The notes below the pieces were generated by a model. It did not search any database. It worked only from the letters and a program-made list of their open reading frames with translations, and was not told where the DNA came from. Both the position numbers and the translations under genes were made by a program. 40,679 nt of DNA from a virus (Duplodnaviria; Caudoviricetes): positions 1 through 40,679 of the IMG/VR virus record IMGVR_UViG_3300025375_000007. One strand, written 5' to 3'. Below, one piece after another: positions 1,039 through 14,696 of this stretch (within the stretch, counting starts at the first letter, position 1; the number at the start of each line of letters is the position of its first letter).

Positions 1039-2610
1039 ATGAGTAATTTAATAAAACATATTCCCTGTGAAGCATGTGGTAGCTCAGATGGTAATTCACT
1101 CTGGGATGATAATCATCAGCATTGTTTTGTATGTCTTAATCATATTAAAGGCGATGAAGATTATGTTGCAACTCCGAGAAAGAAAGTTATGATTGAAGTC
1201 AAAGGTGAAGTCAAGTCGATACCTGACCGAGGGATTACTCAGGCAACGTGTCAGCACTATGGTGTGTCCCAAGACGGGACTAACCAGTACTATCCGTATG
1301 CGAATGAAGAAGGGGCTATCATCGCCTCAAAATCACGCAACGTAGGAACTAAGACTTTTGCCATTACTGGTGACTGGAAAACATCTACGCTCTTTGGTCA
1401 AAATATATTTGCTAAAGGTGGTAAGACTGTTACCATCCATGAAGGTGAGCTAGACGCATTAGCAGGCTTTCAGATGAGTGGTAGCAAGTACGCTAACGTC
1501 TCAGTACGCAACGGTGCTCAAGCAGCTCTAAAGGATGTTAAACAGGCTTATGAGTGGTTATCTTCATTCGAGAATATCTACCTATGCTTTGATGCGGATG
1601 AGGTCGGTCAGAAGGCTGTCAACGAAGTAGCTGAAGTGCTAGGTAATAAGTGCAAGATTGTTAAACATCTGAAGGGATTTAAAGATGCTTGTGACTACCT
1701 TAAGGCAGGAAAGACTGCAGACTACATCAAGCAATGGTGGGCAGCAGAGCAGTGGACACCTGATGGAATCATCGCAGGCTCTACGCTATGGGACGAAGTT
1801 AATCGACCTGTGGAGAAATCGTCAGCCATGTACCCTTGGCCTGGAGTCAATGAACTTACCTACGGTATCCGTCCAGCAGAACTTATCACAGTCACGGCAG
1901 GCTCAGGACTAGGCAAGTCTCAATTCTTACGTGAGATTCTATGGCACTTGATTAAGACTACCAACGACAATATCGGCTTAATGTTCATGGAGGAGTCAGT
2001 ACGTAAGACTGCTCGTGGTATTATGTCGCTCCATCTAAATAAACCACTACACTTACCTGACACTGAGGTTAGTCCTGAGGAGTTAAAGAATGCGTTTGAT
2101 ATTACACTTGGCACTGATAGGCTTTTCTTTTGGGATAACTTTGGTAGTACTGATATCGACAATGTGGTCAATCGTATACGCTATTTCGCCAAGGCAGCAG
2201 ACTGCCGTTACGTCTTTCTTGACCATATTAGCATGGTTGTATCCTCTCAGTCTAATGGTGATGAGCGTAAAGCTATCGATGAACTTATGACCAAGCTTCG
2301 TATGCTCGTGCAGGAGACTGGGGTTAGTTTGATTGTTGTCTCACACCTAAAGCGTCCTGAGTCTAAGGGACACGAAGAGGGTGCTGCAACGTCGCTGTCT
2401 CAACTCAGAGGCTCAGGTGCTATTGCTCAGCTTAGCGATATCGTGATTGGCCTTGTTAGAAATTCTCAGCATGAAGACCCGATGGAACGTAACACCACGA
2501 GGGTTAGTATTCTAAAGAATCGCTTCAGTGGGTTAACCAGTCCTCACTGTGCAAGCTTGCTCTACAACAAAGACACTGGTCGGATGTTAGAGATTCAGGA
2601 GACACTATGA
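1039..2610 (+). CDS. T7 gp4-like DNA primase-helicase
   Basis: Zn finger CEAC..HCFVC, TOPRIM EGELD/FDAD, Walker A AGSGLGKS, FLDHIS, LRGSGAIAQ, LKNRF. Confidence 0.97.
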   Translation: MSNLIKHIPCEACGSSDGNSLWDDNHQHCFVCLNHIKGDEDYVATPRKKVMIEVKGEVKSIPDRGITQATCQHYGVSQDGTNQYYPYANEEGAIIASKSRNVGTKTFAITGDWKTSTLFGQNIFAKGGKTVTIHEGELDALAGFQMSGSKYANVSVRNGAQAALKDVKQAYEWLSSFENIYLCFDADEVGQKAVNEVAEVLGNKCKIVKHLKGFKDACDYLKAGKTADYIKQWWAAEQWTPDGIIAGSTLWDEVNRPVEKSSAMYPWPGVNELTYGIRPAELITVTAGSGLGKSQFLREILWHLIKTTNDNIGLMFMEESVRKTARGIMSLHLNKPLHLPDTEVSPEELKNAFDITLGTDRLFFWDNFGSTDIDNVVNRIRYFAKAADCRYVFLDHISMVVSSQSNGDERKAIDELMTKLRMLVQETGVSLIVVSHLKRPESKGHEEGAATSLSQLRGSGAIAQLSDIVIGLVRNSQHEDPMERNTTRVSILKNRFSGLTSPHCASLLYNKDTGRMLEIQETL

Positions 2611-11194: not shown

Positions 11195-11204
11195 GGAGAA
11201 AGAT

Positions 11205-11474
11205 ATGATTGATAAACAAGAGTTTATGTTTGGAATGCAACGTTTGAATGAAGTGCTTAACTTGGCTGATGAAGTTCAACCTATTATTATGAAGCGTTGT
11301 ATGGAAGCTGCAGAGGACTTTGATTCAATGGACTCTGTACAGTTTTTAGTGTTGTGGAATGACATTAAGAAACTATTAGAGCCTGTGAATGACAAATTGT
11401 TAGAACTACAGACTGTCTCTATGTTTAGAGAACTACAACCACCTAATTATCCAGACCCTGAAAAGGTCTTATAA
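11205..11474 (+). CDS. hypothetical protein
   Basis: AAGGAG RBS supports ATG 11205 (MIDKQEF...). Confidence 0.75.
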   Translation: MIDKQEFMFGMQRLNEVLNLADEVQPIIMKRCMEAAEDFDSMDSVQFLVLWNDIKKLLEPVNDKLLELQTVSMFRELQPPNYPDPEKVL

Positions 11475-11498
11475 GTTTCCTTGAAGTTGTGATTTGAT

Positions 11499-11524
11499 GG
11501 CCTCCATTCGTGGAGGTCTTTTTT
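11499..11524 (+). terminator. rho-independent terminator ending the replication arm
   Basis: GGCCTCCA-TTCG-TGGAGGTC followed by TTTTTT. Confidence 0.9.
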
Positions 11525-11525
11525 A

Positions 11526-11619
11526 TTGTAAGAAAAAGTTTACCGTTCGGGAAGATTTGCATAAAAAGTGTGCAAAAGTATAAAAAAGTTACCGATAGGG
11601 AAATTTTGTAAGAAAAAGT
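11526..11619. repeat. symmetric repeat array: direct repeat, palindrome, hairpin, palindrome, direct repeat
   Basis: TTGTAAGAAAAAGT at 11526 and 11606; TTACCGTTCGGGAA at 11540 and TTACCGATAGGGAA at 11589; TTTGCA...TGCAAA between them. Confidence 0.75.
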
Positions 11620-11648
11620 GAGAGGTTACAAACTCGCCTGCCAATTCG

Positions 11649-11708
11649 TTGATGCCCTAGTTAGAAAGACGGAAAATCACTAGGTTCTTGATGCCCTCGT
11701 GCCGTCTT
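11649..11708. ncRNA. candidate pseudoknot RNA element
   Basis: Interleaved stems CCTAGT/ACTAGG and AAGACGG/CCGTCTT plus a 10-nt direct repeat TTGATGCCCT. Confidence 0.45.
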
Positions 11709-11711
11709 AAC

Positions 11712-12131
11712 TTATTTGATACCTACTTGTTCATTAATCCACTTCTGAAGCTCTACTACTTGAGCTGTGGTTTCTGCACATTGTCCAGCAAGAACATTGT
11801 AGGCGGAGATAACATCAGTGACGCTGGGGGCTGTGGAAAGTCCTGACACTTTACTGGTACTGGGGTTGTTCCACACGCTAGTAGACTTATAGTAGTTCCT
11901 AATAGCAGACAGCTTAGCTTCATATTCATCTTGAATTCCTTTTGTAACTAATGTTTGTTGTTTTGTGATTGATTCGACTTTTGCTTCTTGCTTCGCTGTT
12001 TCTTCTCTAACCACATGTTGAAAGTCAACGAATCGTTTATGCTCAAAGCTATAGCCAAGATACCAAGTACCAGCCAACAAAGCAACACATACTCCCATTT
12101 TGACATAAGTTAATACCGATAAAGGAAACAT
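11712..12131 (-). CDS. i-spanin (Rz-like)
   Basis: N-terminal TM helix, coiled coil, last gene of the lysis cassette, contains an embedded lipoprotein ORF. Confidence 0.85.
   Translation of the reverse strand: MFPLSVLTYVKMGVCVALLAGTWYLGYSFEHKRFVDFQHVVREETAKQEAKVESITKQQTLVTKGIQDEYEAKLSAIRNYYKSTSVWNNPSTSKVSGLSTAPSVTDVISAYNVLAGQCAETTAQVVELQKWINEQVGIK
11756..11929 (-). CDS. o-spanin (Rz1-like lipoprotein) embedded in Rz
   Basis: Alternate frame MNMKLSCLLLGTTISLLA|CGTTPVPVKCQDFPQPPASLMLSPP...; lipobox LLAC, Pro-rich, AGGA RBS; not in the ORF track. Confidence 0.85.
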   Translation of the reverse strand: MNMKLSCLLLGTTISLLACGTTPVPVKCQDFPQPPASLMLSPPTMFLLDNVQKPQLK

Positions 12132-12334
12132 TATTTATCATCCAAAGGTTTAGTTGTCGTAGCTCTAAGATAAGCTATGACAATACCAATAACAAACATA
12201 GAAACACTATACACCTTAGGGTCTAGTAAATCTTGAATGTATGAAGAGTTATCTGATATAGCTCCGAGTAAGAATAGTAAACCAGAGAACCACATAGTCC
12301 TCGATTTAAATATTCCTTGCATCTTACGTCTCAT
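12131..12334 (-). CDS. putative holin
   Basis: Two hydrophobic segments; KSRTMW...LRATTTKPL pattern; lies between lysozyme and spanin. Confidence 0.7.
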   Translation of the reverse strand: MRRKMQGIFKSRTMWFSGLLFLLGAISDNSSYIQDLLDPKVYSVSMFVIGIVIAYLRATTTKPLDDK

Positions 12335-12471
12335 TACTTCTTTTTACCTTTAGCTTTACGCTGTGTAGACAGTGCGATAGCAATAGCTTGTTTCTGAGGC
12401 TTGCCATGCTTCATCTCAGTGCGTATATTTTTAGAAACAGCTTTCTTAGATTTAGATTTAATTAATGGCAT
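12334..12471 (-). CDS. small basic protein (45 aa)
   Basis: [45 protein letters not shown]; AAGGA RBS; QAIAIAL motif common in phages. Confidence 0.75.
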
Positions 12472-12473
12472 GA

Positions 12474-12923
12474 TTATCCTTTATAGTTTGCATGTAAGAA
12501 GCATTCTTGCTCAGCAAGTCTACGCTTTAAAATACTATCGCTGTGTCCATTACTAACCATACACCACTTAGGAAACTCTACAGCAGCTTCGTTCTTTCTA
12601 CCTTCTTTAAGTAGTTTAAGAAGTGTAGAACGCTTAAAAGCACCACACCCTAAGTTATAAGTAAAAGACACGAGAGCATCAAATTCATATTGAGTAAGGT
12701 CTAGTGCTGAAGAGTTAACACAATCCTCAGCAGACTTAACGTCATCTCGAAGAAGCTGTGTAGCTTGTCCCATAGTAATAGGACTACCTTGAACTAAGCC
12801 ATCACCAACAACCATTAGATGTCCATAACCCGCCGTCCATTTACTTGCTGTATCTAAGTAAGGCATGCTACGAAAGCCTTCAAAAGTTTTAAGCTGTTCA
12901 ATACCTTTATCAGAAGTTCTCAT
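12474..12923 (-). CDS. endolysin, GH24 phage lysozyme
   Basis: E-X8-D-X5-T triad ([16 protein letters not shown]), [21 protein letters not shown]. Confidence 0.93.
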
Positions 12924-13369
12924 GTTGCTGCTGTCTGTGAAGTTAGGATACCATTAGTAAAAGTCATGCTACCATTAGAACCACCACCAGTAAGCTTAGC
13001 TGTAGTAATCGTTCCTGTGTATCCAGTAGGTTTGTGTTTAATGTACGAATACAAAGAACTATTGGTCTCTGTCCAGTCTGCCTGTACTTGAGTAATACCA
13101 GGAATACCAGTAATAGTCCCACCAGTAATTGCTACAGTATTAGAATTCTGTGTAGCCATAGTACCAAGACCAAGATTACTACGAGCACCTGCTGCAGTAG
13201 AGGCTCCTGTACCACCTTGCAGAATAGTCCAGATATTGTTACCTGTCTGGGCTTTCTGAATGTAGTTACCTAAGTTACGAAACCATTCACGCCAACGAGG
13301 ATTCTCTGAAATCTCGTCTTGTGGTATTGGTGGTAAATTATTAGGAGCAGAACTAGGATTAACAGCCAC
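12920..13369 (-). CDS. putative minor tail / tail needle-like protein
   Basis: GTG start after AGGAG; PRWREWF motif, GGTGASTAAGARSNLGLG fibre motif, MTFTNGILT C-terminus. Confidence 0.6.
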   Translation of the reverse strand: MAVNPSSAPNNLPPIPQDEISENPRWREWFRNLGNYIQKAQTGNNIWTILQGGTGASTAAGARSNLGLGTMATQNSNTVAITGGTITGIPGITQVQADWTETNSSLYSYIKHKPTGYTGTITTAKLTGGGSNGSMTFTNGILTSQTAAT

Positions 13370-14696
13370 TCTCAACTCCTTCAGCATAGCCTGCAGCTTG
13401 TAAGTCTTCTAAGTGCTTTTGTACTTTCTCACCGATGTCCGTTCTGTAAGCGATTGAATTTGGAATCTCAATCTTCTTCTTGATGGTGTCATAGACCTTG
13501 CAACGAGCATCTTCAATGGTTTCACCTAGTCCTACTACTGTGCAGACATAGTCACCCGCAGTAACAAACATAGGCTCATTCTCTTTGAGCTTACCATCAA
13601 TCATTGCAGGACCTTTGCCCCACTGTACTTCACACAGGTGAACATCAGTAACAGCATCATCCATATCCATGCCCCAGATAGGATAACCAGAGTTCTCCTT
13701 CTTGGTTACTTGGCTATATGGATAATCAGGAATAGTAACAACCACACCAGCAGCAATCTTACTAGACACACGCAGAGTATCTTCTCCGTTGATAAGGTCT
13801 AACATCCACTGAGCAGGGTCTCCCTTGTGTAGAGAAAGTTGAATATTAAAGAGAGGCCAGCCTGGACGCATTGTGAACTCTAAAGGCCATGCTTGACCTT
13901 GTTTGTCGATAATACAGTTCACATCGATGTAGCCAGTGTAGCCTAAACCATGAAGCATGTCTTCTAGTGGCTTGAGCATCTGGTCAGCCAGCTTAGAGTC
14001 TTGCGTATAGCGAACAATAGTACCTTGCTCGCCAGTAGTAACACCGAGTTCACCGTCCATGAGCTTCTTGTGTTCCCAAGACTCACAGAAGTTCTTGGAG
14101 AAACCACAAGCACCAAACCAACCGCCTACACCGAACTCAATGCCAGGACGAAACTCTTGCAGAATAAACTTGCCCTTGAGAGCATTCTTTTTCTTCCAAC
14201 GGTTCAACATGTAAATCATATCAGCAGCAGACTTTGCTACATAAGATAAAGTCTTGTCTCCGTCACCGATAGGCTTAGACACAAAGCGACGTGGGTTCTC
14301 TTTCACATAAGCAATGGCTTCATCATACTTCTCGAAGGTACGACTTGGGATTGTCTTGATGCCAGCGAGATTAAGAATTTTCTCACCATGGTCACGCTCT
14401 TGTTCCCAACGATTAGTATCAATGGATGGTCCAAAGATAGGATAACCTTTATCACGATAACGCTCTAGTGCATGGATGTAGAATAAGTTATCTGTGCAGA
14501 ACACGAGGTCTGCCCAGTTCATGTGGTCTTCCCAGTTGCTCACCCGTTTGATGAGACCACCGTCACCTACTTCAGAACGGCTACCATCCTTATTATGACG
14601 AATGAATAGACGTACTTCGTGTCCGTAGTCTTGGCTACGTAGGCCAAAAGAGAGACCGCAACCGCAGCCTGATTGGTCAATGATTAGTATTTTCAT
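13359..14696 (-). CDS. ATP-grasp ligase, PurD (GAR synthetase)-like
   Basis: GYPIFGPS, FVSKPIG, ILQEF..GIE, EHKKLMDGELGVTTGEQGT, EFTMRPGWP, YRTDIG parallel PurD motifs; GGREH absent. Confidence 0.85.
   Translation of the reverse strand: MKILIIDQSGCGCGLSFGLRSQDYGHEVRLFIRHNKDGSRSEVGDGGLIKRVSNWEDHMNWADLVFCTDNLFYIHALERYRDKGYPIFGPSIDTNRWEQERDHGEKILNLAGIKTIPSRTFEKYDEAIAYVKENPRRFVSKPIGDGDKTLSYVAKSAADMIYMLNRWKKKNALKGKFILQEFRPGIEFGVGGWFGACGFSKNFCESWEHKKLMDGELGVTTGEQGTIVRYTQDSKLADQMLKPLEDMLHGLGYTGYIDVNCIIDKQGQAWPLEFTMRPGWPLFNIQLSLHKGDPAQWMLDLINGEDTLRVSSKIAAGVVVTIPDYPYSQVTKKENSGYPIWGMDMDDAVTDVHLCEVQWGKGPAMIDGKLKENEPMFVTAGDYVCTVVGLGETIEDARCKVYDTIKKKIEIPNSIAYRTDIGEKVQKHLEDLQAAGYAEGVESGC

What the first reader, a model, noticed from the sequence alone, without database searches (positions are those of the whole stretch)
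11649..11711. Candidate pseudoknot RNA with a duplicated 10-nt motif right after the spanin stop
Seen: two perfectly complementary, interleaved stems, CCTAGT (11656-61) with ACTAGG (11679-84) and AAGACGG (11666-72) with CCGTCTT (11702-08), plus an exact direct repeat TTGATGCCCT (11649-58, 11688-97). On the late transcript it reads AAGACGG-CACGAGGGCAUCAAGAA-CCUAGU-GAUUUU-CCGUCUU-UCUA-ACUAGG-GCAUCAA and starts 3 nt after the Rz UAA. That much order in 60 non-coding nt looks non-random. Inference: a pseudo-symmetric structured RNA, such as a 3'-end protector, protein or ligand sponge, processing element or readthrough signal. Readthrough would add a recoded residue plus VKTARGHQEPSDFPSF to Rz.
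Basis: partly seen in the sequence, partly recalled or inferred. Interest (0 to 1): 0.7.

Follow-up and report, generated by a model that had tools for sequence, protein, structure and literature searches.

The report
Stop-codon-hugging phage At1-type knotted RNA
The knotted RNA fold right behind this phage's last lysis gene is conserved in many uncultured phages and is a shortened relative of a catalogued stress-induced small RNA of soil bacteria whose job is unknown; it likely survives as a stable RNA that would bind a host factor, and it is not a readthrough signal.

Summary
The two interleaved stems are real: both show compensatory changes across 80 aligned sequences. It spans 92 nt (11711-11620, minus strand), with two more covarying helices and a conserved junction. 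It is a divergent relative of Rfam RF02496 Atu_At1 (48.9 bits, E 4e-7, below the 60-bit cut-off). A model built from the phage copies finds the Agrobacterium sRNAs At1 and Ti2. The 10-nt repeat is incidental: 6 of 178 distinct copies have one. Readthrough is refuted: stop position, frame and extension length vary. This copy lacks the family's closing stem and starts at a stop codon, like 58 of 68 stop-adjacent viral copies, which follow many gene types. It is missing from 4 phages with 93-97% identical Rz. Best reading: a nuclease-resistant small RNA released from the late mRNA end, acting in trans on a host factor (inferred; no expression or partner shown). This scan has already reported the family in phages seven times, and a 2023 supplement lists viral matches to it.

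The parts
11620..11711 (-). Whole At1-type structured RNA (92 nt), without the closing stem P1 of the free-standing forms
   Evidence: Rfam RF02496 match 11614-11722, 48.9 bits, E 4.1e-7; alignment A1 and covariation
11701..11711 (-). 5' loop GUUAAGACGGC. G11711-C11701 is predicted to close it, and AAGACGG (11708-11702) is the kissing strand
   Evidence: The closing pair is canonical in 95 of 97 clusters, including U-A and A-U swaps, and was not selected for
11666..11672 (-).
   Evidence: 5 of 7 pairs show both-sided changes; 89.3% of cells paired
11673..11676 (-). Near-invariant UUUU, predicted to cross the major groove of the kissing helix and form U.A-U triples
   Evidence: U in 93, 97, 97 and 93 of 97 clusters; the triples are inferred from geometry and untested
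11679..11684 (-).
   Evidence: 6 of 6 pairs show both-sided changes; 89.8% paired
11656..11661 (-). P4 3' strand ACUAGG
11687..11690 (-).
   Evidence: 4 of 4 pairs show both-sided changes; 98.1% paired; includes the top covarying pair
11694..11698 (-). P2 5' strand GAGGG, pairing with CUCUC 11624-11620; the terminal helix in this copy
   Evidence: 5 of 5 pairs show both-sided changes; 71.2% paired, with register shifts in the alignment
11633..11655 (-). P5 hairpin with loop AACGAAUU and junction AGGCGAG, the conserved sequence core
   Evidence: Conserved across clusters, but partly fixed by my search patterns and parser; diverged in Ti2; absent in L469 and L478
11712..12131 (-). Rz-like inner spanin (139 aa); its TAA stop directly precedes the RNA
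   Evidence: ORF. It has no family hit of its own; it is named from the nested Rz1-like ORF and its place after the endolysin
11756..11929 (-). Nested Rz1-like spanin (57 aa)
   Evidence: phrog_3198 Rz-like spanin, E 1.3e-4
11499..11528 (+). Intrinsic terminator of the convergent plus-strand operon (ribonucleotide reductase and downstream ORF)
   Evidence: Terminator scan; no terminator-like site was listed on the minus strand in 11200-12500
11649..11697 (.). The 10-nt direct repeat (11649-58, 11688-97); incidental
   Evidence: 6 of 178 distinct copies

Best explanation
This is a 92-nt, closing-stem-less relative of the Agrobacterium At1/Ti2 small RNA, conserved by base-pair covariation at the end of the phage's lysis operon; it likely folds into a kissing-loop pseudoknot that is predicted to resist nucleases, would be cut free near the stop codon, and would act in trans by binding a host factor through its conserved unpaired bases. 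Shown: the sequence, the covarying helices (kissing helix, P2, P3, P4), homology to At1 and Ti2, and the position at the stop codon. Inferred: U.A-U triples from the UUUU strand, endonucleolytic release near the stop codon and 3' trimming back to P2, accumulation late in infection, and a protein partner. The partner is not identified.
For: Structure. Homology in both directions: the Rfam model hits the window, 8 of 20 phage copies pass the Rfam cut-off, and the phage-built model R1 finds At1 (68.9 bits) and Ti2 (28.7 bits). The same fold is kept in very different settings, as expected for a trans-acting RNA. It stands free behind a GGAAC box in 40 of 53 high-GC bacterial copies (30 at -48/-47 from the first G; background 7%). 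It stands behind ATAAATA at -18/-19 in 10 of 101 viral copies. It also follows the stops of Rz, ferritin/Dps-like, lysozyme, holin, tail-adaptor and RNR genes. Bacterial neighbours are varied in function and orientation. Relatives are known as discrete RNAs: At1 is 113-118 nt, rises from 45 to 866 RPKM in stationary phase and is not depleted by TEX (PMC3738593 passages); Ti2 is 113 nt and accumulates differently from its downstream mRNA (PMC3384568 passages). At1's mapped ends lie at the ends of its closing stem. A closing stem of -8 kcal/mol or better is present in 30 of 32 free-standing viral copies and 78 of 78 bacterial copies, but only 21 of 68 stop-adjacent viral copies.
Against: No expression, processing site or binding partner was shown for any phage copy. 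In 40 of 47 stop-adjacent copies the next gene is convergent, against 14 of 28 free-standing ones (two rows are duplicates), which fits a cis role at the mRNA 3' end equally well. Deleting Ti2 did not significantly affect tumour formation (PMC3384568, data not shown there). The cassette is missing from 4 close relatives, so it is accessory. The 3' core is diverged in Ti2 and absent in L469 and L478, so a single shared partner for all forms is not certain. Lee et al. read Ti2 as possibly part of a 5' UTR.
Confidence: 0.45

Rival explanations
1. A cis-acting 3'-end element. The knot blocks 3'-5' exonucleases, or ends transcription, at the end of the late mRNA and shields it from the convergent operon. 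The discrete At1 and Ti2 RNAs would be stable leftovers of the same block.
For: Next gene convergent in 40 of 47 stop-adjacent copies. No minus-strand terminator listed here. In relatives with small genes after Rz, the motif sits 188-577 nt further on, behind them (L013, L015, L016, L020, L021). Wilms et al. raise premature termination or processing for Ti2.
Against: A plain hairpin would do this job; it does not explain the conserved loop and junction bases. Copies with their own promoter and no upstream gene exist. A U-tract after the last stem is seen in some copies only (by eye). Four close relatives lack it.
Confidence: 0.25
2. A small-molecule or ion-binding RNA (an aptamer-like sponge or sensor). 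The junction and triple helix form a pocket for a stress signal such as a nucleotide messenger.
For: Compact three-way junction plus pseudoknot with conserved unpaired bases. A general-stress-type promoter in bacteria (consensus GGAAC-N16-CGTT from PMC7083833 passages).
Against: No consistent downstream gene or expression platform. No riboswitch family hit in Rfam. Coreless variants exist.
Confidence: 0.12
3. A self-cleaving or otherwise catalytic RNA that cuts itself out of the mRNA.
For: Tight coupling to the stop codon (58 of 68 within -4..+2); conserved core.
Against: At1 and Ti2 are reported with one size each, about full length. At1's 5' end sits at promoter distance from GGAAC and survives TEX. 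No Rfam ribozyme family hit.
Confidence: 0.07
4. A stop-codon readthrough signal that adds a tail to Rz.
For: A pseudoknot directly 3' of a UAA.
Against: Stop offset and frame vary; extensions are 1-112 aa with no shared sequence; one substitution (L012) or a 1-nt insertion (L017, L071) changes the Rz tail. Free-standing copies have no upstream ORF.
Confidence: 0.01
5. A chance or neutral sequence.
For: 32 of 8124 genome windows pass the two-stem test; nested folding z -0.83.
Against: Covariation far above shuffled and slid controls; 178 distinct copies in phages and bacteria.
Confidence: 0.01

Closest known systems
Rfam RF02496 Atu_At1 (Agrobacterium fabrum C58 sRNA At1 = pAT_55271R; Wilms 2012 PMC3384568, Lee 2013 PMC3738593)
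   Same: Same P2, P3, P4 and P5 layout, GYYAA 5' loop, UUUU/UUUC tracts and CAACGAA..GGCAG.CGAG core. At1's AACCGGA and UCCGGUU are complementary in the same positions as the kissing helix.
   Different: The window scores 48.9 bits, under the 60-bit cut-off. It lacks the closing stem P1 and a promoter of its own, and starts at a stop codon. The Rfam consensus does not draw the pseudoknot. At1 lies just upstream of ligD on plasmid pAt. The function of At1 is unknown.
Agrobacterium Ti2 sRNA (VirA/VirG-induced, Ti plasmid; PMC3384568)
   Same: Scores 80.5 bits on RF02496 and 28.7 bits on the phage model; keeps the kissing half and P2-P4.
   Different: The P5 loop and junction are diverged; it has P1; it lies at the 5' end of the atu6155-virK transcript.
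DNA-virus candidate structured RNAs 42510 and 42511 (Fremin et al. 2023, PMC10690425, supplement file 3)
   Same: Listed as matching RF02496, so viral members of the family are already in print.
   Different: Only the table rows were seen. The alignments (two zip files and three oversized files) could not be read, so it is unknown whether they cover this stop-adjacent form or the pseudoknot.
Triple-helix pseudoknots (telomerase RNA, SAM-II riboswitch); recalled, not from a call
   Same: A U-rich strand would cross the major groove of a 7-bp helix next to conserved A-U pairs.
   Different: Here the partner strand comes from the 5' side and there is an added three-way junction. No sequence similarity by Rfam. 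The triples are untested.

Membership tests
Rfam RF02496 Atu_At1 | Covariance-model score at or above the gathering threshold (60 bits) | tested here: not met
   48.9 bits, E 4.1e-7; filed as a divergent relative, not a formal member. 8 of 20 phage homologues do pass.
Rfam RF02496 Atu_At1 | P2, P3, P4 and P5 helices around a three-way junction with the CAACGAA/GGCAG.CGAG core | tested here: met
Rfam RF02496 Atu_At1 | Closing stem P1 joining the 5' and 3' ends | tested here: not met
   Best duplex -5.2 kcal/mol for the identical copy L001, against -8 or better in 78 of 78 bacterial copies
Rfam RF02496 Atu_At1 | Reciprocal detection of the founder RNA by a model built from phage copies only | tested here: met
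   At1 68.9 bits, Ti2 28.7 bits
Rfam RF02496 Atu_At1 | Expressed as a discrete RNA of about 113 nt | not testable with these tools
   No RNA run was available for the phage
Readthrough-stimulating pseudoknot (gammaretrovirus type; features recalled) | Fixed spacing from the stop codon and a conserved in-frame extension | tested here: not met
   Offsets -4 to +2 in different frames; extensions of 1-112 aa
Known self-cleaving ribozymes (HDV-like, twister, pistol, hammerhead and others) | Match to the family's Rfam model | tested here: not met
   No hit to E 10 in 11400-11900 or to E 0.05 in 20 homologue loci
Known self-cleaving ribozymes (HDV-like, twister, pistol, hammerhead and others) | Site-specific self-cleavage | not testable with these tools
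   Needs an in vitro assay
Type III antitoxin RNA (ToxI/AbiQ type; features recalled) | Tandem array of pseudoknot repeats beside a toxin RNase gene | tested here: not met
   One copy in the window; one locus of those searched (L350) held two, about 870 nt apart; no such toxin family among 65 bacterial neighbours scanned
Riboswitch (cis-regulatory) | Consistent position 5' of functionally related genes | tested here: not met
   Varied neighbours and orientations; convergent next gene in 40 of 47 stop-adjacent phage copies
Intrinsic terminator | GC-rich hairpin followed by a U-tract on the transcript strand | tested here: not met
   No minus-strand site listed in 11200-12500

The most novel reading that the evidence does not exclude
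A widespread, portable phage RNA module whose kissing-loop triple helix is gated by the terminating ribosome. While the upstream gene is translated, the ribosome at the stop codon melts the kissing strand. When host translation is shut down, or the RNA is cut free, the knot snaps shut and neutralises a host stress or defence factor. Phages and rhizobial plasmids would then share an RNA-only counter-defence device of an uncharacterised class.
Probability: 0.12. Interest if true: 0.85.

Novelty: new variant of a known kind. Interest (0 to 1): 0.4.

Why it matters
The family has had no assigned function since 2012, and its Rfam consensus omits the pseudoknot, which is among its best-supported helices here. 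The stop-adjacent phage form shows that the closing stem and a dedicated promoter are dispensable, which narrows the working unit to about 90 nt. Phages with 93-97% identical Rz differ by the presence of the cassette, which gives a natural with/without comparison. At1 and Ti2 in a laboratory Agrobacterium strain make the function directly testable. The family's presence in phages is not new: see the 2023 supplement and seven earlier notes of this scan.

Tried and rejected
Rfam at gathering thresholds over the window: 0 hits; the link appeared only with the E-value search. Sequencing runs: no RNA holder listed, so nothing was learned about expression. blastn of the window motif, At1 and two other variants against 50,697 GenBank phage records gave no match covering the motif; no cultured phage carrier was found at that sensitivity. 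Host: the closest cultured major capsid protein is that of an Alcaligenes phage at 53.6%, too far to assign a host. Class-wide samples: 0 of 151 genomes in the class of G008 with model R1 (no positive control in that call), and 1 of 151 (the centre genome itself) in the class of G006 with RF02496. These were scored with strict filters, so they mean only 'not found in those searched'. A pattern scan that left the 3' core free was mostly chance: 15 of 120 loci had 6 or more kissing pairs, and by eye only 2 (L469, L478) looked real. A test for base triples by covariation was uninformative because the U tract hardly varies. Literature: 'Atu_At1' gave 0 papers; 'RF02496' gave 2 papers, both false hits on 'orf02496'; the Ti2 search gave no functional follow-up in its listing; the main text of the Agrobacterium Hfq paper PMC4201532 does not name At1 or Ti2 (supplements not read). 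Rejected: pseudo-symmetry, readthrough, type III antitoxin, riboswitch, intrinsic terminator and known ribozyme classes (see the membership table).

Full report
Setting. The window is the whole 40,679-base virus record G000. Primase/helicase, DNA polymerase, exonuclease and a ribonucleotide reductase lie on the plus strand; terminase, portal, capsid, tail and lysis genes lie on the minus strand. The finding lies in the convergent gap between the two. On the minus strand the last gene is a 139-aa ORF (12131-11712). It holds a nested Rz1-like ORF (phrog_3198) and follows an endolysin; I call it Rz on that basis, as it has no family hit of its own. The host is unknown. The nearest cultured capsid protein is 53.6% identical, from an Alcaligenes phage.

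Observation. On its own the pattern is weak evidence. It is rare in shuffles of the 63-mer (2 of 3000), but 32 of 8124 genome windows pass the same test, and the nested fold is unremarkable (z -0.83). Contigs from public DNA runs of two studies carry the region unchanged.

Homologues. Of 80 Rz-related loci, 19 hold the motif within the fetched flank. It sits directly at the Rz stop in L001, L002, L005, L012, L014, L017-L019, L029, L049, L052 and L071. It lies 188-577 nt further on in L013, L015, L016, L020, L021 and L024. It is absent from L004, L006, L008 and L009, whose Rz is 93-97% identical; there the stop runs straight into the downstream repeat. Those four contigs are fragments (9-43% complete) and show no copy elsewhere. 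A 19-nt pattern from the conserved 3' part returned 119 viral loci (about 160 estimated) and 120 bacterial-genome loci (about 310 estimated). Of the bacterial loci, 89 scored 28 bits or more with a profile of the phage copies; the named ones are mostly Rhizobiales and Bacteroidota. A second pattern returned 119 viral loci, 48 with a profile hit. Alignment A1 holds the window and 79 loci. I left out 11 of the 119 loci as chance matches lacking the upstream features, one truncated copy, one copy identical to the window, and duplicates.

Structure. Counting a five-helix structure on A1 gave 87.9% paired cells and a covariation score of 0.534. Shuffles gave 0.179 (0 of 500 reached the observed score) and slid registers 0.066-0.159. 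Both-sided changes occur at 5 of 7, 5 of 5 (P2), 4 of 4 (P3) and 6 of 6 (P4) pairs. The sequences are related, so these controls are not probabilities. A structure-anchored parse of all loci gave 249 instances, 178 distinct, in 97 clusters at 90% identity. The parse required 7 of 7 kissing pairs; 244 of 262 profile-positive loci met that, and most of the other 18 have one mismatch. Two features were not selected for. G11711-C11701 is a canonical pair in 95 of 97 clusters, with U-A and A-U swaps, which makes the 5' strand a loop and the interaction a kissing loop. A11677-U11665 pairs in 85 of 97, which would leave the P4 loop as UUUU plus the seven pairing bases. From that geometry I infer that UUUU crosses the major groove of the kissing helix and forms U.A-U triples at its two conserved A-U pairs. 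This is an analogy recalled from telomerase and SAM-II pseudoknots and is not tested; the U-tract score was also part of my parser. The sequence core CAACGAA..GGCAG.CGAG was partly fixed by my patterns. It is diverged in Ti2 and absent in two viral loci that keep the kissing half and P1-P4 (L469, L478).

Family. Rfam gives nothing at its cut-offs. By E-value the region matches RF02496 Atu_At1 over the whole model, at 48.9 bits and E 4.1e-7. All 20 homologue loci tried match this family best, and 8 pass the 60-bit cut-off. A model built only from the phage copies finds At1 (68.9 bits) and Ti2 (28.7 bits) in the Agrobacterium plasmids; Ti2 scores 80.5 on RF02496. From passages of Wilms 2012 (PMC3384568): At1 is 113/115 nt and strongest at high density; Ti2 is 113 nt, VirA/VirG-dependent and the most abundant Ti-plasmid transcript; deleting Ti2 had no significant effect on tumours. 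From passages of Lee 2013 (PMC3738593): pAT_55271R is 118 nt by sequencing and about 140 nt by Northern, with RPKM 45, 866, 3597 and 877 without TEX and 105, 717, 3728 and 1042 with TEX; these authors read Ti2 as possibly part of a 5' UTR. At1 lies just upstream of ligD. The supplement of Fremin 2023 (PMC10690425) lists two DNA-virus candidates matched to RF02496; its alignment files could not be read and may bear on novelty. I found no functional study in the searches.

Contexts. Two forms exist. Free-standing copies have a closing stem P1: a duplex of -8 kcal/mol or better in 30 of 32 viral and 78 of 78 bacterial copies. Many also have a promoter-like box at a fixed distance. GGAAC occurs in 40 of 53 high-GC bacterial copies (background 7%), matching the EcfG general-stress consensus quoted in PMC7083833. 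ATAAATA occurs at -18/-19 in 10 of 101 viral copies (the T4 late-promoter likeness is recalled). Stop-adjacent copies, including the window, mostly lack P1 (21 of 68 reach -8; median -5.75), and 58 of 68 have the stop within -4..+2 of the motif's first G (a few of the 68 ORFs are probably spurious). The upstream proteins fall into 19 groups. These include ferritin/Dps-like (21 copies), Rz (12), a lysine-rich small protein (5), GH19 lysozyme (5), tail adaptor (3), holin, phage lysozyme and RNR. The next gene is convergent in 40 of 47 stop-adjacent and 14 of 28 free-standing copies. Bacterial neighbours are varied in function and orientation.

Readthrough fails: the stop falls in different frames relative to the knot, in 16 copies inside its first bases, and the would-be tails run 1-112 aa. 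The 10-nt repeat occurs in 6 of 178 copies. One copy of the repeat lies in strands that covary with distant partners and the other in the conserved junction, so the match is coincidental.

Mechanism. One fold is kept whether it is transcribed alone, at the 5' end of an operon or at the end of an mRNA, and two relatives accumulate as discrete RNAs under stress or induction. The simplest common account is a stable RNA that acts in trans. In this phage it would be made as the tail of the late transcript, trimmed from the 3' side to P2 and cut free near the stop codon; its conserved unpaired bases would bind a host factor (0.45). All steps after folding are inferred. The main rival is a cis 3'-end protector or terminator (0.25), favoured by the convergent arrangement. 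Ligand binding (0.12) and catalysis (0.07) remain open.

Novelty. Earlier notes of this scan report the At1 family in seven other genomes, including one case between convergent early and lysis operons. I took the Ti2 and pAT_55271R leads and the term 'kissing loop' from them, and checked these here. Verdict: a real RNA, a new variant of a known family of unknown function; interest 0.4.

Noticed in passing
window 11533-11567 and 11582-11616; similar word near 12108-12128: A pair of 35-nt imperfect direct repeats (74% alike) centred on TTACCG..GGGAA lies between the RNA and the plus-strand terminator. It is present in L004, L006 and L008, which lack the RNA, and absent in L017 and L071. It may be a protein-binding site or a recombination site.
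   Followed up: no
L469 about 1195-1285 (+); L478 (-), near its 72-120 match: Coreless variants: same kissing loop and P1-P4 but no CAACGAA/GGCAGGCGAG part. They are preceded by TATAAT and a GC-rich hairpin and followed by a U-tract.
   Followed up: partly
L130 97-543 and 20 related viral copies: A ferritin/Dps-like gene (PF00210) ends right at the RNA in 21 distinct viral copies, often with a convergent gene's end abutting the RNA's 3' side.
   Followed up: partly
window 13359-14696 (-): A 445-aa ATP-grasp protein resembling phosphoribosylglycinamide synthetase (PF02843, PF01071, both under their cut-offs) lies between tail and lysis genes; it could be a DNA- or protein-modifying ligase.
   Followed up: no
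L439 1611-1775 (NC_003064.2, 55110-55274): At1 sits about 50 nt upstream of ligD on the same strand, behind a GGAAC box, so it may share a general-stress promoter with the end-joining ligase.
   Followed up: partly
L350 291-394 and 1166-1256; genome G006: Some bacteria hold more than one copy: two about 870 nt apart in L350 beside a fasciclin gene, and three matches in G006.
   Followed up: no
window 12334-12471 (-): A 45-aa lysine-rich ORF (phrog_2423) lies in the lysis module; other small lysine-rich ORFs directly precede the RNA in relatives.
   Followed up: no
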